A stretch of DNA of 64,000 nucleotides from an uncultured Acidobacteriota bacterium (GCA_963738485.1 CAVTWK010000005.1:64549-128548); one strand, 5' to 3'. Shown: positions 3,617 to 49,636, counted from the stretch's first letter. Numbers and translations: made by a program. Notes: a model not told the origin generated them from the letters alone.

Positions 3617-4515
3617 GCCTGGTCGCTCACCGGCGCGGTCGCGCGCGTGCGCCACCAGGCCGCAGTCCGTGCGACACCGTCCCGCCAGCGCACCTCGGGT
3701 TGCCAGCCGGCGACGGTGGTGGCCTCCGACACGGGCGGCGCGCACTGCACATCGGGCTCGCCGGCGCGTCGAGAACGACGGCCGAACGAGAAGCGGGCGG
3801 CAGGGAACTCTTCTGCGACGGCAGTGACCACGTCCCGAATCCTCACACCTTCCCCGCGGCCCAGATGATGGATCGCACATCCGCGCGCGGGCAGGCGGTC
3901 GGGAGCAAGCGCCCGAAGACACCACGACACGAGATCGTCAATATACAGGAGGTCGCGGGTCTGCAGCCCGTCCGAGAATTCTCCCTCACGGCCGTTGGAG
4001 GCCGCATCGAACGCGTACGGGATCAGCATCGATCCCGTCTGTCCCGGCCCGTACACCACGAATGGCCTCATCCAGTCGATCGCAATGGCCGACCGGCGTG
4101 CCGCGTGCTCGCTCACACGACGCAGCAGGTCCTTGCACAGGCCGTAGGTGGACCGTGGGTCGGCCGGCGTCGCCACACCCAGCACGCCTTCGGCCGGACC
4201 CAGTTCATCAATCGATCCGGCGATGATCAGTCGAGGCACGCTGGCGGCTTCGGCCTCCCCGACCAGCGTGACGCCGGCGTGAAACGTATCGCGCCACTGG
4301 GCCGCGCGCGCCCGTTCGTCCTCGCCCTTCCCGACCGATCCAGCCAGGTGCACCACGACCCGGGGCGAGGTGGCCTCCAGCAGGCGGCGCACGGCCGCCG
4401 CGTCAGAGAGGTCGAGGTCGGTGCGTGACACCGCGCGGTGCGGCACGCCGGCGCGCGAGAGCGACGCGCACAGGGCGCCGCCGATGAACCCGGAGGCGCC
4501 GGTGACGACGATCAT
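3613..4515 (-). CDS. NAD-dependent epimerase/dehydratase family protein (SDR)
   Basis: '[15 protein letters not shown]' Rossmann motif and 'STYGLCK' (YxxxK catalytic motif). ATGA overlaps at both ends. Confidence 0.8.
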   Translation of the reverse strand: MIVVTGASGFIGGALCASLSRAGVPHRAVSRTDLDLSDAAAVRRLLEATSPRVVVHLAGSVGKGEDERARAAQWRDTFHAGVTLVGEAEAASVPRLIIAGSIDELGPAEGVLGVATPADPRSTYGLCKDLLRRVSEHAARRSAIAIDWMRPFVVYGPGQTGSMLIPYAFDAASNGREGEFSDGLQTRDLLYIDDLVSWCLRALAPDRLPARGCAIHHLGRGEGVRIRDVVTAVAEEFPAARFSFGRRSRRAGEPDVQCAPPVSEATTVAGWQPEVRWRDGVARTAAWWRTRATAPVSDQA

Positions 4516-30867: not shown

Positions 30868-32507
30868 ACATGCCCCTCCTGACCCTGCTCATCGTGCTGC
30901 CGGTCGTCGGCGCCCTCCTGGTGCTGCTGCTCGGTCGCGGCCGCGATGGCCTTTCGCGCCAGCTCGGACTGGGCGTGTCGCTGGTCACCTTCGCGGCGAG
31001 CCTCCTGCTCTGGTGGCAATTCGACCCGGCGTCTGCGGAGTACCAGTTCGTCGAGCGGCTGTCGTGGCTGCCGGACTTCGGGGTCTCCTACCACCTTGGG
31101 GTGGACGGCATCAGCCTGCTGCTGGTCGTGCTCACGACGTTCCTGACCCCCATCGCGCTCCTTTGTTCGTGGGAGTCGATCGACGACCGCGTGCGCGAGT
31201 TCACGTTCTTCATGCTCTTCCTCGAAGCGGCCATGATCGGCGTGTTCGTCTCGCTCGACCTGTTCCTGTTCTACATCTTCTGGGACGCGATGCTGATTCC
31301 GATGTATTTCCTCATCGGGATCTGGGGCTACGAGCGCCGCATCTACGCCGCCATCAAGTTCATGCTCTACACGATGGCGGGCAGCGTGCTGATGCTCATC
31401 GCCATCATCTGGATCGCCTACTACCACCAGTCGGTCACCGGGGTGCCGAGCTTCGACCTGCTCGACCTGCTGGCGCTGTCGATTCCGGCCGGCGTCCAGA
31501 CGTGGCTGTTCCTGGCGTTCGCCGTGGCCTTCGCGATCAAGGTCCCGCTCTTCCCGTTCCACACGTGGCTGCCGGATGCCCACGTCCAGGCCCCGACGGC
31601 CGGGTCGGTCATCCTCGCCGGCGTACTGCTGAAGATGGGCACCTACGGGCTGCTGCGCTTCGCCTTCCCGCTCTTCCCGGCCGCCGCGCTCGAGTTCGCG
31701 CCGTGGATCGCGCTGCTCGCGGTCATCGGCGTCGTCTACGGCGCGCTGGTGGCGATGGTCCAGCCGGACATGAAGAAGCTGGTGGCCTACTCCTCGGTCA
31801 GCCACCTCGGCATCGTCGTCCTCGGCATCTGCGCGCTGAACATCAACGGCGTGCAGGGCGCCGTCTACCAGATGCTGGCGCACGGCATTTCGACCGGCGG
31901 CCTGTTCCTGGTGGTCGGCATGCTGTCCGATCGACGGCACACCAAGCTCATCGCGGAGTACGGCGGGCTCAAGGCGGTCACGCCGAAGCTCGTCGGCGTG
32001 TTCCTGCTCATCACGCTGGCGTCCGTCGCGCTGCCGGGCACCAACGGGTTCGTCGGCGAGTTCCTGATTCTCGTCGGCGCCTTCGACGGCGTGTTCGCGA
32101 ATCACCGGCTCTACACGTCGATCGCCGCCACCGGCGTGATCCTCTCGGCGGTCTACATGCTGTGGATGTTCCAGCGCGTCAACTACGGCCCGATCACCAA
32201 CGACAAGAACCGCGGCCTGCGCGACCTCAGCCCGCGCGAGTGGGTGGTCATCGCGCCGATCTGCGCCATGGCGGTCTTCATGGGCGTCATGCCCGGCATC
32301 TTCCTGAAGCCGATGGAGCCAGCGGTGAAGAAGACCGTCGAGCGCATCGTCGGCACGAACCGGCCGCTCAATGCCGCGGTGCCCATCCCGCCCGGGACCG
32401 TCGCCCGCGGTGACGTCACCGCGCTGGAGGCCGGCAGCGCGGCCGCCGGGACGTCCGCCATCCCGTCTGCGCCCGTCGGTGCGGCGAACCCAGGGAGCGG
32501 TCGCTAA
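30864..32507 (+). CDS. nuoM: NADH-quinone oxidoreductase subunit M
   Basis: 'HLGVDGISLLLVVLT...FFMLFLEAAMIGVF...PFHTWLPDAHVQAPTAGSVILAGVLLKMG...KKLVAYSSVSHLG'. ATGA overlap with nuoL. Confidence 0.95.
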
Positions 32508-33944
32508 TGTTGAACGACATCATTCCAATCATCCCGGTCCTGATGGTCGTGCTGTCGGCCTGCGCCGTGCTGCTGGCCGAGGCTTTCCGCCGCGAGCACG
32601 ACTGGATGCCCGTGGGGCTGCTCGGCCTGGTGGGCGTCCTCGGGGGCATCGCCTCGTCCGTGCCACTCTGGAACCGCAACGCGGTGGCGTTCGGCGTCAT
32701 CACCGTGGACAACTTCACGGTCTTCTTCAACATCCTGCTCTGCGGGATCGGCCTGCTGACGATCCTGATCTCGTCCGGCACGGCCGAGCGCGACAAGCTG
32801 CCGACGGGGGAGTACTACGCGCTGATGCTCTTCTCGCTGGCCGGCATGATGCTGATGGGCGCGACGAAGGACCTGCTGGTCATCTTCATCGCGCTCGAGA
32901 TCATGTCGCTTGGGGTGTACGTGCTGACGGCCATCAAGCGCACGAGCGAGGCAGGCGCGGAAGCCGGCTTCAAGTACCTTCGTGCTCGGTGCGTTCTCGA
33001 GCGCGTTCTTTCTCTACGGCATCGCCATGACCTACGCGGCGACCGGCACGACCAAGCTCGACGAAGTGGGCATGCGTGTCGCCAGCACCGCCCAGGACCC
33101 GAGCGTGCTGCTCGTCCTCGCGATGGTCCTGCTGCTCGTCGGCTTCGCCTTCAAGATCTCCGCCGTGCCGTTCCACATGTGGACGCCAGACGCCTATCAG
33201 GGCGCGCCGACGCTGGTGACCGGCTTCATGTCCACGGGCGTCAAGGCGGCGGCGTTCGCCGCGTTCATCCGGGTCTTCCTGTCCGCGCTCGAGCCGCTGC
33301 GCCTCGACTGGCTGCCGGTCGTCTCGGCGCTCGCTGGCCTCACGATGATTCTCGGCACCGTCGTCGGCGTGGCGCAGACCAGTGTCAAGCGCATGCTCGC
33401 GTACTCGAGCATCGCGCACGCCGGCTACCTGCTCGTCGGCCTGGTGGCCGCCAGCAGCGCGGGCAAATCCGCGATTCTCTTCTACCTGGTGGCTTACGCG
33501 GTCACCAATCTCGGCGCCTTCGGCGTCCTCGCCGCGCTGTCCACCGCGGATCGGCCGCACGATGACGTGCGCGACTTCGCCGGCCTGTGGAAGGAACGCC
33601 CCGGCATGGCCGGGCTCCTGACGGTGTTCCTGCTCTCGCTGGGCGGCTTCCCGCCGACCGTGGGCTTCGTGGCGAAGTGGTACATCTTCAACGCGGCCGT
33701 GCAGGAGAACCTGATCGCGCTGGCCATCCTCGGCGTGCTGACGAGCGTGGTCTCGGTCTTCTTCTATCTGCGCATCGTCGTGCAGATGTACATGACGGAC
33801 GAACACGCCCCGGGGCATCGCCCGACCGTTCCGGCGCTCGCGCTCACCGGCATCGTGCTCGCCCTCGTCGCGGTCTTCTACCTCGGCGTGCTGCCGGGAC
33901 GACTCATCTCCATCTCCGCAGCGGCAGTCGCGGCGATCTTCTGA
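32507..33944 (+). pseudogene. nuoN: NADH-quinone oxidoreductase subunit N, one frame break (~32972-32982)
   Basis: '...LEIMSLGVYVLTAIKRTSEAGAEAGFKY' continues in the 32982 frame as 'VLGAFSSAFFLYGIAMTY...PFHMWTPDAYQGAPT...'. Confidence 0.9.
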
Positions 33945-34230
33945 ACTGACGCAGGAGTCCCGGCGCTGACGCAGGGACTGACGAAGAAGTCCCGGCGCTG
34001 ACGCTCAAGTCCCGGCGGACAAGCACTCAGGTCCCGGGGGCTTCGCCGAAGTCCTGGGGACTGACGGCGAGCCTGAACTGACGCTCGAGTCCCGGTGGAC
34101 AGGCACTCAAGTCCTGCGGAGCTTCGCTGAAGTCCTGGGCTGACGCAGGGACTGACGAAGAAGTTCCGGCACTGACGTCCAAGTCCCGGCGGACAAGCAC
34201 TCAGGTCCCGGAGCTTCGCAGAAGTCCTGA
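33945..34230. repeat. Array of ~12 short words (AGTCCYGG cores, ~19-23-nt spacing) organised as 3 copies of a 62-nt block and 2 copies of a ~92-nt block
   Basis: 33966-34059 and 34140-34230 are ~90% identical direct repeats. The 62-nt body 'ctgacgctcaagtcccggcggacaagcactcaggtcccgg..gcttcgc.gaagtcctgg' also occurs at 34076-34139. Confidence 0.85.
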
Positions 34231-34679
34231 CGCCCATCGGGTCACTCCTACGCGACCCGCCCGACGACCCCACCCGCGCCGGCCGGCGGTCCCGTGCTCC
34301 GCGGCCTCCGCGTCTTCGCCTGATCGTCGTTGTCCCTCTCCGCAGCCTTCGCGTCCCCGGGATGATCGTCCGTCGCGTGCGGGGTCGTCCGGCGGGTCGC
34401 CGGGAGCTGACCCTCGACCGCCGCGCCTCCGTCCGCTCGCGGTTCACCCTGGCGCCCATCGCCCGAGGCCTACGCGGCTTCGAAACCAAACATGCCTACG
34501 GCCTCGGGCTCGAACCGCTCGCTCCCTGCGGCGCGCGGTCACCCTGACGCTCATCGGGTCACTCCCACGCGACCCGCCCGACGACCCCACCCGCGCCGGT
34601 CGGCGGTCCCGTGCTCCGCGGCCTCCGCGGCCTCCGCGTCTCCGCCTGATCGTCGTTGTCCCTCTCCGCGGCCTCCGCG
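34231..34679. repeat. Pair of ~123/132-nt direct repeats (34231-34353 and 34548-34679) separated by ~190 nt
   Basis: Both copies read 'cgc.catcgggtcactcc.acgcgacccgcccgacgaccccacccgcgccgg.cggcggtcccgtgctccgcggcctccgcg...tgatcgtcgttgtccctctccgc'. Identity is >90%, with a 9-nt cctccgcgg duplication in copy 2. Confidence 0.85.
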
Positions 34680-34726
34680 CCCTCCGCGTGACCGCGTGAC
34701 CGCGCTTGCGTTTCACGGAAAGTACT

Positions 34727-34756
34727 GTTACGTTCTGTCACATGACAGTCCGTAAC
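34727..34756. promoter_or_regulatory. Candidate BlaI-family operator: 14-nt inverted arms (2 mismatches) centred on the repressor gene's start codon
   Basis: GTTACGttCTGTCA-ca-TGACAGtcCGTAAC overlaps ATG 34742. Confidence 0.45.
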
Positions 34757-35125
34757 ACATCGGGCAGGCTCCTCACGACGCTTCAGCAGGCCATCCTGGA
34801 TTTGCTGTGGACGCGTGGGGCGTCCACCGCGGAACAGGTGCGTGAGGGGCTGGTGCCGGCGCACCGTCTGAAGGACTCGAGCGTGCGCACGCTGCTGCGG
34901 CGTCTCGAGGCCCGCGGGCTCGTCCGGCATCGCGTCGAGGGCAAGGTGTTCATGTATGAGGCCAAGGCCGCACCCCGCAGCGTGGCGGCGCGCACCGTGC
35001 ACCAGCTCATCGACCGCGTGTGGGCGGGATCGGTGGAGCAGTTCCTGGTCGGGATGGTGGACGAGAAGCTGGTCACGGCCGAGGAGCTGGCACGGCTGGC
35101 GAAGAAGGTGAAGGCCCGCAAATGA
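34742..35125 (+). CDS. BlaI/MecI/CopY-family transcriptional repressor
   Basis: Winged-helix 'LQQAILDLLWTRGASTAEQVREGL...SSVRTLLRRLEARGLVRHRVEGKVFMYEA' is typical of the Penicillinase_R family. The stop overlaps the next start (ATGA). Confidence 0.85.
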   Translation: MTVRNTSGRLLTTLQQAILDLLWTRGASTAEQVREGLVPAHRLKDSSVRTLLRRLEARGLVRHRVEGKVFMYEAKAAPRSVAARTVHQLIDRVWAGSVEQFLVGMVDEKLVTAEELARLAKKVKARK

Positions 35126-37468: not shown

Positions 37469-37666
37469 ATGATCACCTCACTCGAGGCGCGCCTGACCGC
37501 GACGCTGCTCAAACATGGCGAACGTGAGACCGTCGCGGCGTTCCTCGAGCGCTCGGCCCCCTTCAAGGGCATCCATGCGCAACAGGCAATCGACGATGCC
37601 GCCGCGATTCGCGCGGGCATGGCACCGTCGTTCTACGGCGCGTATTACCCATCGACGCCGCGCTGA
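37469..37666 (+). CDS. Small hypothetical protein (65 aa) downstream of the BlaR1-like gene
   Basis: ATG 20 nt after the upstream stop, in the ORF 37268..37666 frame. No recognisable motif. Confidence 0.3.
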   Translation: MITSLEARLTATLLKHGERETVAAFLERSAPFKGIHAQQAIDDAAAIRAGMAPSFYGAYYPSTPR

Positions 37667-37960
37667 CCTGCAGGGGCTTCGCGAAGTCCTGGCGAACAAG
37701 CACTCGGGCGCTGCGCAGACGTCCGGGAACTGACGCTCAAGTCCCGGTGGAACAGGCCCTCAAGTCCCGGAGGCTTCGCTGAAGTCCCGGAGCTTCGCTG
37801 AGGTCCGCGAATCGGAGCCTGCTGACGCGCGCGGCGCCCGCTTCTGTACGCGTCGGTCCCAGTCCGTCTGCGCGCCATGCGCGCCTCCGCGTGATCGTCT
37901 TCGCGTGCGCGTGAACCGGTTGCGGCCCGCCGACCGACGGGATACCATTTCCCCTCGTCG
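37655..37960. repeat. Further copies of the AGTCCYGG / GCTTCGCnGAAGTCC word family, including one 62-nt block (37730-37790), same orientation as at 33945-34230
   Basis: 'ctgacgctcaagtcccggtggaacaggccctcaagtcccggaggcttcgctgaagtcccgg'. In addition, 'cctccgcgtgatcgtcttcgcg' resembles 34300-34330. Confidence 0.8.
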
Positions 37961-38890: not shown

Positions 38891-38960
38891 CTTGGGGGCA
38901 GTACCCCACCCCAGGGGAGTCCGGGGCGGCAAGTCCCGTGAGAACCGAGAGAGAGTGTCC

Positions 38961-40538: not shown

Positions 40539-40650
40539 GGGGTCAGATCTGTTTTCCACAGATTCGGGCCCGTCGGTGCCAGATCTCCCGCCCCCGTCGG
40601 CGAGATCTGGCACCGGTGTGCCCGAATCTGTGGAAAACAGATCTGACCCC
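40539..40650. repeat. 112-nt near-perfect palindrome (31-nt perfect outer arms) between purH and the GT39 gene
   Basis: ggggtcagatctgttttccacagattcgggc (40539-40569) pairs with gcccgaatctgtggaaaacagatctgacccc (40620-40650). There is an inner ggtgccagatct / agatctggcacc pair. Confidence 0.9.
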
Positions 40651-42267: not shown

Positions 42268-42520
42268 GGTGCAGGGCGAGGACCTCGACGTACTGGAACC
42301 TCAGTGCGGTGCTGGGCGGTGACGTGACGGTGCAGGAGGCCTCGCCGATGTGCTGGCGGCTGCGCACGGCGCTGCGCCGACGTGCGGGAACCTCAGTGAG
42401 GTCCGGCGCCGACCTGAAGAGCTGGGGGCTGCGCCGGATGCGCAGGGCGCTGACGCGGACGTGCGGGAGGCTCAGTGAAGTGCTGGGGGCTTGGCCCATG
42501 TGCTGGTGGCTTCGCGAGCC
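42268..42520. repeat. Three degenerate tandem units (~80-92-nt period) between convergent genes
   Basis: The core 'gacgtRcKggaaSctcagtgNRgtSc.gg' occurs at 42287, 42379 and 42458. In addition, 'atgtgctgg.ggct.cgc' occurs at 42347 and 42497. Confidence 0.75.
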
Positions 42521-48749: not shown

Positions 48750-49636
48750 CCGGTTCCGCCCGCGGCCGTTCCCGCACTACGCCGCGCGTCGCTGAGGTCC
48801 CGGAACTGACGCCCAGGTCCCGGAGGCGGCGCCCCTTCCTGGCGTTGGTCGTCGTGGCGGTGATGGCCTCGTCCCTCGCGGGCTGTGCCGTTCGGCGGTA
48901 CACCGTGCCGACGGGCCCGTGGCAACCAGCGACCGACGCCTCGGTCGCCTGGCAGGAAGCGACGGCCGACTGCGCCGGCCTCCTGGCCCTGCGCGCGTCG
49001 GTGCGGCTCTCCGGCCGAGTCGGTCCCCAGGCGATTCCCGGATTCCGCAGCGCCACGCTCGGCGTAGCCGTCACCGCCGCCGACCAGGTCGGCCTCGAGG
49101 CGCGCCACTCGGGTCAGTTGCTGTTCAGGCTCGGGGGGACGGCCGATCGCACGGTGCTGTTCTGGAGCGAGGGCCCGCGCACGCTCACGGCCCCGGCCGC
49201 CGATCTGGTCGATGCGCTGATTGGCGTCAAGGTCACCCCGCGCCGCCTGCTGGCCATCCTCGCCGGGTGTGCCGGCACCGGCGGTCCAGTCGATCGCGCC
49301 GAGCGCAGCGGCGGCGACCTCCGCGTGACCACTCCCGACGCCGTCGTGTACCTGTCGCGGGTCGCCGGCGCATGGCGCGTGCGCGCGGCGCGCCTCGAGG
49401 GCATGTACGTCAGTTACGACCTCAGCCGCGGGCGGGCCGCGCCCGCGGCCGTCCGCATCGACTCTCTCCCGGAGGCCTCGCTCGTCGTGGCGCTGTCCCT
49501 GCGGCTCGTGGATGTCGAGCACAACCCCGAACCGGCGCTGCCGCCGGCCGCGTTCGCGGTCAACGTGCCGCCAGAGGCCTTGCCGATGACGCTCGACGAA
49601 CTGCGATCCTGGCGCAGCGGAGGCGAACTCCGATGA
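48746..49636 (+). CDS. Outer-membrane lipoprotein, LolB/DUF4292-like (positional equivalent of lolB upstream of ispE)
   Basis: Lipobox 'SSLAGC'. 'TAPAADLVDALIGVKVTPRRLLAILAGCA' resembles the LolB '[27 protein letters not shown]' segment. The synteny TPR-lolB-ispE-tRNAGln-prs-ctc-pth is known from beta/gamma-proteobacteria. GTG start overlaps the upstream stop. Confidence 0.55.
   Translation: MTGSARGRSRTTPRVAEVPELTPRSRRRRPFLALVVVAVMASSLAGCAVRRYTVPTGPWQPATDASVAWQEATADCAGLLALRASVRLSGRVGPQAIPGFRSATLGVAVTAADQVGLEARHSGQLLFRLGGTADRTVLFWSEGPRTLTAPAADLVDALIGVKVTPRRLLAILAGCAGTGGPVDRAERSGGDLRVTTPDAVVYLSRVAGAWRVRAARLEGMYVSYDLSRGRAAPAAVRIDSLPEASLVVALSLRLVDVEHNPEPALPPAAFAVNVPPEALPMTLDELRSWRSGGELR

What the first reader, a model, noticed from the sequence alone, without database searches (positions are those of the whole stretch)
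33945..34700. 760-bp non-coding region built from nested direct repeats and a ~20-nt periodic AGTCCYGG word array, upstream of the BlaI/BlaR1 pair
Between nuoN and the BlaI-family gene there is no credible ORF. Instead the region contains three layers of repeats:
(i) About 12 copies of the words (A/G)AGTCC(C/T)GG, CTGACGC and GCTTCGCnGAAGTCC, at spacings of mostly 19-23 nt, about two helical turns.
(ii) These words are grouped into three copies of a 62-nt block and two copies of a ~92-nt block (33966-34059 and 34140-34230, ~90% identical).
(iii) A separate pair of ~125-nt direct repeats (34231-34353 and 34548-34679).
The same words recur at 37655-37815, at 38925-38950 (upstream of purH) and at 48785-48825. 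Related words recur at 42268-42520. This looks like a dispersed, genome-specific repeat family. It could be REP/BIME-like, an array of protein-binding sites, or a structured ncRNA locus, and I cannot place it in any known class.
Basis: seen in the sequence. Interest (0 to 1): 0.6.

Follow-up and report, generated by a model that had tools for sequence, protein, structure and literature searches.

The report
Mosaic of selfish intergenic DNA repeats
The 760-base gap between nuoN and blaI in this soil acidobacterium is non-coding filler made of three different repeat families, one peculiar to this genus and one a hairpin element shared across the order; it is an ordinary kind of bacterial junk or mobile DNA and is not tied to the BlaI/BlaR1 genes.

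Summary
The repeats are real and far beyond chance, but the region is a mosaic of three things.

1. **Word array, 33945-34230.** It holds 12 words with the core GAAGTCCCGG and starts one base after the nuoN stop. The family has about 750 words in about 60 arrays in this Vicinamibacterales genome. Only 3.7% of clustered words lie in predicted genes. The family is absent from 40 relatives. Arrays tend to follow stop codons in sense orientation and cluster regionally. As RNA the array folds no better than shuffles.

2. **Palindromic element, 34355-34611.** This is one copy of a roughly 250-nt rod-folding element. It is multi-copy and patchy across at least three families of the order. 43 of 56 pairs show compensatory change, and G-U pairs are almost absent, which points to DNA rather than RNA.

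3. **Tail, 34612-34704.** A short tail of CTCCGCG-type words.

The genome carries three RAYT-like transposase genes, each flanked by its own repeat family, but none is flanked by GAAGTCCCGG words. Best reading: lineage-specific REP-like or minisatellite repeats plus a MITE-like palindrome. These are new members of known kinds, of modest interest.

The parts
33945..34230 (+). Unidirectional array of 12 words with the core (G)A(A/G)GTCC(C/T)GG. Between the cores lie CTGACGC, GCTTCGC and CGGACAAGCACTC spacer modules. The array starts 1 nt after the nuoN stop (TGA at 33942-33944).
   Evidence: Genome-wide family.
33960..34211 (+). Higher-order units of the array. 33960-34037 and 34134-34211 are 92% identical; 34040-34117 is a 63% copy.
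   Evidence: family D1; 107 nt at 89.7%.
34037..34058 (+). Small hairpin word GGGGCTTCGCCGAAGTCCTGGG (stem GGrnCTTC/GAAGTCC, 3-nt loop). Further copies lie at 34118-34139 and 34210-34231. GCTTCGCNGAAGTCC occurs 98 times in this genome.
   Evidence: (D6).
34226..34353 (+). Partial copy of the palindromic element. It holds the element's 3' arm from the word CTGACGC onward (34228-34296) plus the downstream tail. It joins the word array at a shared CTGACGC.
   Evidence: D3, D4, I2; profile positions 170-242.
34355..34611 (+). Full copy of a ~250-nt rod-folding palindromic element. The 5' arm is 34358-34413, the central hairpin is 34451-34499 (GCCCGAGGCC...GGCCTCGGGC), and the 3' arm is 34556-34611.
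   Evidence: (I1).
34612..34704 (+). Tail of short words. The 9-nt word CTCCGCGGC occurs about 2.8 times at 34614-34638 and again at 34664-34688. The 8-nt word CCGCGTGA occurs about 2.6 times at 34684-34704. A similar tail follows the element copy at C6:490441-490502.
34726..34757 (.). Operator-like palindrome TGTTACGTTCTGTCA / TGACAGTCCGTAACA over the ATG at 34742 of the BlaI-family gene. It is context for the repeats, not part of them.
   Evidence: BlaI matches PF03965 and BlaR1 matches PF05569.
37655..37815 (+). Second array of the same word family, in the same orientation, after the BlaR1/small-ORF unit. It is the closest relative of the 33945-34230 array anywhere in the genome.
48785..48825 (+). 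Two-word mini-array: GAGGTCCCGG, then AACTGACGCC, then CAGGTCCCGG.

Best explanation
The nuoN-blaI spacer is non-coding DNA that three unrelated families of selfish or neutral intergenic repeats have colonised in turn.

(1) Word array. A head-to-tail array belongs to a genus-specific REP-like/minisatellite family. A 10-nt core, GAAGTCCCGG, is kept, while 10-40-nt spacer modules differ from array to array.
- Shown: the arrays are confined to intergenic DNA.
- Shown: they tend to start within a few tens of bases after the stop codon of a co-oriented gene, and they favour gaps between convergent genes.
- Shown: units are more alike within a locus and between neighbouring loci than across the genome.
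- Inferred: arrays grow by replication slippage or unequal recombination and spread mostly locally.
- Inferred: they were perhaps seeded by a RAYT-type Y1 transposase. The genome has three such genes, each flanked by its own repeat family.

(2) Palindromic element. One full and one partial copy of a ~250-nt imperfect palindrome is present. It is multi-copy and patchily spread through Vicinamibacterales.
- Shown: it keeps strict Watson-Crick complementarity through many compensatory changes.
- Inferred: it behaves as a MITE-like or foldback mobile DNA hairpin.

(3) Tail. A short tail of CTCCGCG-type words follows.

Inferred: the repeats have no specific link to BlaI/BlaR1. Any function is incidental, for example hairpins and repeat tracts that insulate or terminate the long nuo transcript before the blaI promoter.
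For: Word family:
- There are 752 AAGTCCYG words genome-wide, 546 of them clustered. Only 3.7% of clustered words lie in predicted CDS, against 80% of the genome called coding. Singletons are 74% coding, which is chance background.
- GCTTCGCNGAAGTCC occurs 98 times here and 0-1 times in each of 40 relatives.
- Paired cores occur 260 times here and at most 3 times in each relative, with 0 in the own-genome control.
- Convergent gaps hold 23 of 56 occupied gaps, although only 17% of all gaps are convergent.
- 41 of 62 runs follow a co-oriented gene's stop (p=0.015), at a median of 32 nt.
- Regional clustering: 33 occupied gaps have a neighbour within 10 kb, against 16 +/- 4 expected.
- The best non-self match of this array is the array 3.4 kb away.
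- Units are locally homogenised, as in the 42-word array of a 48-nt unit at C1:724755-725801.

Coding and RNA checks:
- No ORF or Pfam match and no Rfam match.
- The array fold has z = -1.1.

Palindromic element:
- Copies lie at C6:490119, C2:259490(-), C3 (three in tandem) and C1:83251(-).
- It is found in 23 of 71 genomes of the family and in two other families of the order. One cross-family copy is 88% identical. Many copies sit at contig ends.
- 91% of cells are paired, against 73% in shuffles and 33-44% when slid. 43 of 56 pairs carry compensatory change.
- In the inner helices G-U pairs number 6 and A-C mismatches 9, among 870 cells.
- Fold z = -6.5 on the + strand and -6.3 on the - strand.
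- No neighbouring gene recurs.

RAYT-like genes: all three are flanked by their own repeats.
Against: - No RAYT or other transposase gene is flanked by GAAGTCCCGG words, so the seeding mechanism is only an analogy.
- The core is far better kept than the spacers. Pure neutral satellite decay does not predict this, so selection on the core (a binding site) or a core-specific generating process remains possible.
- For the palindromic element, no target-site duplication, exact empty site or cognate transposase was found.
- Its internal loops are conserved in sequence and its outer stem covaries, which is also what a functional RNA would show.
- The gene calls are my own codon-usage caller on an indel-prone assembly.
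Confidence: 0.72

Rival explanations
1. The arrays are multivalent binding sites for a lineage-specific DNA- or RNA-binding factor that reads the GAAGTCCCGG core. The factor could be a nucleoid-organising, insulating or titrating protein. The spacers would then be free to drift.
For: - The core positions carry about 1.5-2 bits each, while the spacers carry 0.0-0.7 bits, across about 60 arrays with unrelated spacer modules.
- The commonest spacing is 20-21 nt.
- Arrays are unidirectional.
Against: - Spacings of 23-24, 28-30 and 48-49 nt are also common, so there is no constant helical phase.
- The core's information content is partly circular, because words were found by the core.
- The family is absent from all 40 relatives, so any factor would have to be equally young.
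- The arrays sit next to unrelated housekeeping genes.
- No candidate protein was identified.
Confidence: 0.12
2. The ~250-nt palindromic element (34355-34611) is a structured non-coding RNA gene or cis-acting RNA. It would act, for example, as a strong bidirectional terminator or insulator, or as a protein-binding RNA, rather than as mobile DNA.
For: - Covariation is very strong in nine helices.
- Internal loops are conserved in sequence, for example TCCGTCCGCTC, CTCCCT and CTGACGCnCATCGG.
- Fold z = -6.5.
- Three of the own-genome copies lie upstream of co-oriented genes.
Against: - G-U pairs are as rare as A-C mismatches (6 vs 9 of 870 cells), and both strands fold equally well. This fits DNA-level symmetry, not one RNA strand.
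- The distribution is patchy within genera, and a cross-family copy is 88% identical.
- Copies occur in tandem and in tail-to-tail inverted pairs, and many lie at contig ends.
- No neighbouring gene is conserved.
- There is no Rfam match.
Confidence: 0.1
3. The word arrays are classical REP/BIME elements made and moved by a dedicated RAYT. The cognate gene is simply missing from this assembly, which is estimated to be 62% complete.
For: - Three RAYT-like genes (best match NF047646) are present, and each is flanked by inverted repeats.
- One of them is flanked by inverted tandem arrays of another 11-nt word family (GGGGTCAGAC), which likewise sits right after stop codons.
- The hairpin word GGrnCTTCGCnGAAGTCC resembles a small REP.
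Against: - Arrays are head-to-tail, not inverted dimers.
- Most words have no palindromic partner, and the array does not fold better than shuffles.
- There is no GTAG tag.
- tblastn finds only the three RAYT-like genes, none near these words.
Confidence: 0.2
4. The region is a degraded coding sequence or an assembly artefact.
For: - The assembly has frame errors, such as the nuoN frameshift near 32990-33010.
- Long ORFs cross the region on the minus strand.
Against: - The ORFs have no Pfam match and fail the codon-usage test.
- The repeat periods are mostly not multiples of three.
- The same families recur at about 60 loci on 7 of the 9 contigs, with consistent structure.
- The palindromic element is found in independent assemblies of other genera.
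Confidence: 0.03

Closest known systems
REP/BIME elements and REPINs mobilised by RAYT (Y1, IS200/IS605-type) transposases; GTAG- and CGTC-tagged REP superfamilies (Di Nocera et al. 2013, PMC3733652)
   Same: - The words are short, extragenic and high in copy number.
- They are specific to a species or genus.
- They lie mostly downstream of coding regions and in clusters.
- The genome carries RAYT-like genes flanked by repeats.
- A subset of words forms a small G+C-rich hairpin.
   Different: - Arrays are head-to-tail rather than inverted dimers.
- The conserved core is not a palindrome.
- There is no terminal GTAG. The word CTGACGC does contain the complement of CGTC, but not as a hairpin tag.
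- No RAYT gene is flanked by this family.
Long intergenic simple-sequence or heptamer repeat arrays: GGGAATC of Xanthomonas and Nostoc (PMC4692102), TAACTGA direct repeats of Beggiatoaceae (PMC4679880)
   Same: - They are direct tandem arrays at many intergenic loci.
- They are lineage-specific and of unknown function.
- The same genome also holds ACGGNNN heptamer arrays.
   Different: The unit is 20-48 nt with a fixed 10-nt core and variable spacer modules. It is not a uniform 7-nt unit.
Mycobacterial MIRU-type intergenic minisatellites
   Same: - They are tandem 40-100-nt units in intergenic DNA within or after operons.
- Units are locally homogenised.
   Different: - MIRUs lie at a few dozen loci and often carry small overlapping ORFs that link stop and start codons.
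- No such coding logic is seen here, and the periods are mostly not multiples of three.
For the 34355-34611 element: ERIC/IRU and enterobacterial RU imperfect palindromes, Correia and RPE elements, and bacterial MITEs (reviewed in PMC3184786; RU elements in PMC2759123)
   Same: - It is a 100-300-nt imperfect palindrome.
- It is intergenic, multi-copy and patchily distributed.
- It is predicted to fold into a long hairpin on either strand.
   Different: - The interior, not the termini, is the most conserved part.
- The outer stem covaries between genera.
- No target-site duplication or matching transposase was found.
Plasmid iterons (17-22-bp direct repeats at about 22-bp spacing that bind Rep initiators; from my own knowledge)
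   Same: They are direct repeats with a modal spacing near two helical turns.
   Different: - The arrays lie at about 60 chromosomal loci.
- Spacing is variable, with no adjacent rep gene or origin features.
- Arrays reach 42 words.

Membership tests
REP/BIME-RAYT system | The unit is a 20-40-nt imperfect palindrome (stem-loop). | tested here: inconclusive
   Only the hairpin word GGrnCTTCGCnGAAGTCC is palindromic (98 copies). Most of the ~750 cores have no inverted partner. The whole array folds at z = -1.1.
REP/BIME-RAYT system | A conserved GTAG (or CGTC) tetranucleotide tag sits at one end of the hairpin (PMC3733652). | tested here: not met
   There is no GTAG in the words. GACG occurs inside CTGACGC, but not at a hairpin end.
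REP/BIME-RAYT system | Units are organised mainly as inverted (head-to-head or tail-to-tail) dimers. | tested here: not met
   Runs are unidirectional. Opposed runs occur only where two arrays meet between convergent genes.
REP/BIME-RAYT system | A RAYT gene is flanked by the same repeats. | tested here: not met
   There are three RAYT-like genes. They are flanked by GGGGTCAGAC arrays, CACCTCGGAGGTG palindromes and 56-nt TIRs respectively. None is flanked by GAAGTCCCGG. The assembly may be incomplete.
REP/BIME-RAYT system | The repeats are extragenic, high in copy number, lineage-specific and mostly downstream of genes. | tested here: met
Minisatellite / long simple-sequence repeat | Copies are head-to-tail and tandem, with local homogenisation of units. 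| tested here: met
Minisatellite / long simple-sequence repeat | Copy number is polymorphic between strains. | not testable with these tools
   There is no second genome of the genus. The metagenome scan gave only chance single hits.
Structured non-coding RNA (word array) | The fold is more stable than shuffles, or the sequence matches a described family. | tested here: not met
   z = -1.1. The only Rfam match has E = 8.3.
MITE / foldback element (34355-34611) | Terminal inverted repeats are present. | tested here: met
   The 56-nt arms are 75% complementary here (I1). The outer stem is about 37 bp and perfect in G013 copies. Helix 1 covaries.
MITE / foldback element (34355-34611) | The element is multi-copy, with a patchy distribution suggesting mobility. 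| tested here: met
   There are 2-8 copies per genome, in 23 of 71 genomes and 16 of 24 genera of the family, plus two other families of the order. It is absent from some congeners.
MITE / foldback element (34355-34611) | There is a target-site duplication or an exact empty site. | tested here: inconclusive
   The orthologous gene ends in congener G044 lack the element, but the downstream genes differ, so no exact empty site could be defined.
MITE / foldback element (34355-34611) | An autonomous element with the same ends encodes a transposase. | tested here: not met
   No neighbouring gene recurs. The gene between one inverted pair is an HD-domain-like protein by eye.
Structured RNA family (34355-34611) | Covariation is strand-specific, with G-U tolerated. 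| tested here: not met
   Covariation is strong. However, G-U pairs (6) about equal A-C mismatches (9) among 870 inner-helix cells, and both strands fold equally well.
Iteron / phased protein-binding array | Spacing is constant and helically phased, next to a cognate gene or origin. | tested here: not met
   Spacing peaks lie at 20, 24, 28, 40 and 48 nt. The neighbours are housekeeping genes.

The most novel reading that the evidence does not exclude
Two readings remain open.

First, the invariant 10-nt core GAAGTCCCGG, kept across about 60 arrays whose spacers have diverged beyond recognition, could be a recognition code read by a young, genus-specific factor. That factor could be a DNA- or RNA-binding protein, or a Y1/HUH enzyme that builds head-to-tail arrays. 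If so, these arrays would be a functional post-stop-codon insulator or terminator system rather than junk.

Second, the ~250-nt rod element, with conserved internal loops and perfectly Watson-Crick covarying stems, could be an undescribed class of hairpin-borne mobile DNA, or a structured RNA, of Vicinamibacterales.
Probability: 0.12. Interest if true: 0.6.

Novelty: new member of a known kind. Interest (0 to 1): 0.3.

Why it matters
This explains a puzzling 760-bp gap and, with it, a good share of the long intergenic gaps of this genome. Of 570 called gaps of at least 500 bp, 48 carry this one word family.

It shows that the apparent bracketing of BlaI/BlaR1 by repeats is a by-product of a general habit of the arrays to sit after stop codons.

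It also documents an undescribed, order-wide palindromic element with unusually clean covariation. Genome annotators should mask this element, and RNA-motif hunters should not mistake it for a riboswitch-like RNA.

Finally, it links the word-array phenomenon of Vicinamibacterales to RAYT-type transposases for at least one sister family (GGGGTCAGAC).

The biology is not surprising for a specialist in bacterial repeats. What remains open is why the cores are conserved and how the head-to-tail arrays are made.

Tried and rejected
- **Rfam.** Searches at gathering and permissive thresholds found only a tRNA elsewhere in the window and a chance E = 8.3 hit.
- **Promoter and terminator scan** of 33800-34800 found nothing.
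- **Plasmid and phage collections** gave no match to the region.
- **Metagenome scan** for the hairpin word returned only single chance hits in coding DNA of unrelated organisms.
- **Synteny.** No relative has nuoN followed by blaI. Their post-nuoN spacers are short, and some carry their own unrelated hairpin words.
- **BlaI-binding idea.** Rejected, because the operator-like palindrome is separate and the arrays occur at about 60 unrelated loci.
- **Coding remnant.** Rejected.
- **Genes between opposed arrays.** These are ordinary genes, or there are none.
- **Transposase between palindromic-element copies.** None was found.
- **Empty-site analysis** in a congener was inconclusive.
- **Conserved array termini.** No conserved 5' terminus of the arrays was found beyond the words themselves.
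- **Rho-utilisation-like C-richness.** The skew is weak, C 36.7% against G 33.5%.

Full report
**Setting.** The window is C5:64549-128548 of a 4.46-Mb, 9-contig, 68% G+C assembly. NuoN relatives place it in Vicinamibacterales (Acidobacteriota). The nearest genome has 81% NuoN identity, and no other member of its genus is held. The finding lies between the stop codon of nuoN (PF00361; TGA at 33942-33944) and a BlaI-family repressor gene (PF03965), which is followed by a BlaR1-type M56 protease gene (PF05569). No ORF across 33945-34700 matches Pfam or passes a codon-usage gene caller that I trained on the genome's long ORFs.

**Observation.** There are nine exact and three one-mismatch RGTCCYGG words, all on the + strand, mostly 19-22 nt apart. 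Two blocks are 92% identical over 78 nt (107 nt at 89.7% by blastn), with a weaker third copy. A pair of direct repeats is 88.9% identical over 144 nt. The window holds 33 RGTCCYGG matches against 15.4 +/- 3.9 in shuffles.

**The word array is one member of a genus-specific intergenic family.**
- *Abundance and position.* The genome has 752 AAGTCCYG words. 546 of them sit in clusters, giving about 60 arrays of three or more words and up to 42 words at C1:724755-725801. Only 3.7% of clustered words lie in predicted coding sequence, although 80% of the genome is called coding. The 206 isolated words are 74% coding, which is chance background.
- *Restriction to this genus.* The 14-specified-base hairpin word GCTTCGCNGAAGTCC occurs 98 times here and 0-1 times in each of 40 relatives. 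Two cores 8-32 nt apart occur 260 times here and at most 3 times in any relative. A scan of public metagenome contigs returned only single chance hits.
- *Unit structure.* Aligning on the words gives a core (C)GCnGAAGTCCCGG. Flanks are nearly uninformative, and spacing peaks lie at 20-21, 23-24, 28-30, 39-41 and 48-49 nt. Arrays at different loci use different spacer modules (CTGACGC, GCTTCGC, CTCGCTGCGCTCG and others). Units are homogeneous within an array.
- *Nearest relative.* The best non-self match of the 33945-34230 array is the array 3.4 kb downstream, at 37655-37815.
- *Which gaps are occupied.* Occupied gaps are enriched for convergent gene pairs: 23 of 56, although only 17% of all gaps are convergent.
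- *Orientation.* 41 of 62 unidirectional runs follow the stop codon of a co-oriented gene (binomial p=0.015), at a median of 32 nt.
- *Regional clustering.* 33 occupied gaps have another within 10 kb, against 16 +/- 4 expected.
- *Neighbours.* Flanking genes are ordinary housekeeping genes.
- *Folding.* As RNA the array folds no better than shuffles (z = -1.1). Only a small hairpin word (GGrnCTTC-GCn-GAAGTCC) recurs.
- *Other checks.* There is no Rfam match and no consensus promoter or terminator.

**The "125-nt direct repeats" are a different element.** The segment between them (34371-34545) has 86-90% identical copies at C6:490129, C2:259699(-) and C3:64461, with partial copies elsewhere. 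A profile search shows a ~245-nt unit (window 34355-34611). In this unit the 5' arm (34358-34413) is complementary to the 3' arm (34556-34611), around a central hairpin at 34451-34499. Segment 34226-34353 repeats only the 3' arm, starting exactly at the word CTGACGC, plus the downstream tail. The locus therefore holds one partial and one full copy. The partial copy is joined to the word array at a shared CTGACGC.

The element is not genus-specific.
- It occurs in 23 of 71 genomes (16 of 24 genera) of the family, at 2-8 copies each.
- It is often at contig ends and often in tail-to-tail inverted pairs.
- It also occurs in two other families of the order, including an 88% identical cross-family copy.
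- It is absent from some congeners.

An alignment of 24 copies from 8 genomes gives a rod-like consensus of 56 pairs in nine helices. 91% of cells are paired, against 73% in column shuffles and 33-44% when partners are slid. 43 pairs show changes on both sides. In the inner helices G-U pairs (6) are as rare as A-C mismatches (9) among 870 cells. Both strands fold about equally well (z = -6.5 and -6.3). In one genus the outer stem is about 37 bp and perfect.

That symmetry, the patchy distribution and the tandem and inverted arrangements argue for a DNA-level palindromic, MITE-like or foldback repeat rather than a one-strand RNA gene. An RNA is not excluded, however. The interior loops are conserved in sequence, and I found no target-site duplication, exact empty site, cognate transposase or recurring neighbouring gene. 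The region has no match in plasmid or phage collections, and earlier notes of this scan do not describe the element.

**The tail.** Segment 34612-34704 consists of CTCCGCGGC and CCGCGTGA words. A similar tail follows the C6 copy. It resembles, weakly, a further array family of this genome, CTCCGYGGTGA, which has 225 words in 19 arrays.

**The wider picture in this genome.** The most frequent intergenic 10-mers belong to several word families: ACGGNNN heptamers, GAAGTCCCGG (second most abundant, 412 intergenic against 25 coding), CACATCAC, GGGGTCAGAC and CTCCGCGGTG. This agrees with earlier notes on this genome.

The genome has three Y1 transposase genes whose best NCBIfam match is REP-associated tyrosine transposase. 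One scores above the curated cut-off. Each is flanked by inverted repeats.
- One is flanked by tandem arrays of GGGGTCAGAC. This word family forms short direct arrays closed by an inverted unit, lies right after stop codons, and is patchily shared by 10 of 24 genera.
- One is flanked by CACCTCGGAGGTG palindromes.
- One is flanked by 56-nt terminal repeats. Their gene-less fusion is the 112-nt palindrome at window 40539-40650.

REP/RAYT-type biology is therefore active in this lineage. However, no such gene is flanked by GAAGTCCCGG words, and these arrays fail the REP criteria of palindromic units, a GTAG tag and inverted dimers as described in PMC3733652.

**Interpretation.** The best-supported reading is that the nuoN-blaI spacer is a dumping ground for three families of selfish or neutral intergenic repeats.
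- Shown: the arrays' confinement to non-coding DNA, their post-stop bias, their local similarity and their regional clustering.
- Inferred: growth by slippage or unequal recombination, and local spread.
- Analogy only: seeding by a Y1 transposase.
- Inferred: any role as insulator or terminator between the long nuo operon and blaI.

BlaI has its own operator-like palindrome over its start codon (34726-34757). The direct arrays on both sides of blaI-blaR1 follow from the general post-stop habit of the family.

The main unexplained point is that the 10-nt core stays intact while the spacers diverge. That keeps a protein-recognition reading alive at low probability.

**Limits.**
- The gene calls are my own.
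- The assembly shows frame errors, such as the nuoN frameshift.
- Estimated completeness is 62%.

Noticed in passing
window 40539-40650; G000 C9:340845-341504 (L008 1366-1421 and 2078-2133): The 112-nt near-perfect palindrome after purH consists of the two 56-nt terminal inverted repeats (AGGGGGTCAGATCT.TTTTCCACAG...) that flank a RAYT-like Y1 transposase gene on contig C9. Here they are joined without the gene, so the palindrome is a MITE derivative of that element.
   Followed up: yes
G000 C2:128670-129326 (L009 1186-1239 and 1993-2039); for example C2:126162, C5:277319, C9:252897: A RAYT-like gene is flanked by inverted tandem arrays of the 11-nt word GGGGTCAGAC(N), in a REPtron-like layout. 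The same word forms 26 short arrays in this genome. A typical array has 3-5 direct units closed by an inverted unit and lies right after a stop codon. The tandem word occurs in 12 of 71 genomes (10 of 24 genera) of the family, including upstream of a blaI homologue in G011 (L107).
   Followed up: partly
G000 C1:31714-32460 (L007 1210-1269 and 1938-1964): A third RAYT-like gene (NF047646, 84.5 bits, above the cut-off) is flanked by GATCACCTCGGAGGT inverted repeats. The core CCTC[CG]GAGGTG occurs 62 times in the genome. It resembles the CTCCGYGGTGA array words (225 words, 19 arrays).
   Followed up: partly
window 32507-33944: nuoN is split between two frames. The switch is near 32990-33010, where ORF 32507-33565 overlaps ORF 32982-33944. 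This is probably a one-base assembly error. A response-regulator gene at C6:583146-583985 similarly runs into a repeat array at its 3' end. Runs of ten or more G or C are frequent (429 intergenic and 241 coding 10-mers). Together these fit an indel-prone long-read assembly and the low completeness estimate (62%).
   Followed up: partly
window 34726-34757: An operator-like palindrome (15-nt arms, 87% complementary) is centred on the ATG at 34742 of the BlaI-family gene. Upstream lies a possible TTGCGT-17 nt-TACGTT promoter, which would give a leaderless or near-leaderless mRNA.
   Followed up: partly
L010, L014, L019 (about 3960-4100 in each): Other Vicinamibacterales genomes carry their own, unrelated short hairpin-word repeats directly after the nuoN stop. 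Examples are GTAGTGCAGCCCTTCAGGGCTGC (GTAG-tagged, REP-like) in L014 and GGCTTCAGGGCTCAAGGCCTCAGGGCTCAGG with its inverted partner in L019.
   Followed up: no
G000 C3:63797-64694: Three to four tandem copies of the palindromic element (spacing about 245 nt) lie next to a 20-word GAAGTCCCGG array. This shows that different repeat families pile up in the same permissive gaps.
   Followed up: partly
G000 C7:23499-23936: A small gene that by eye resembles the four-helix-bundle '23S rRNA intervening sequence protein' type lies between two opposed GAAGTCCCGG arrays. It was not scanned against any protein-family library.
   Followed up: no
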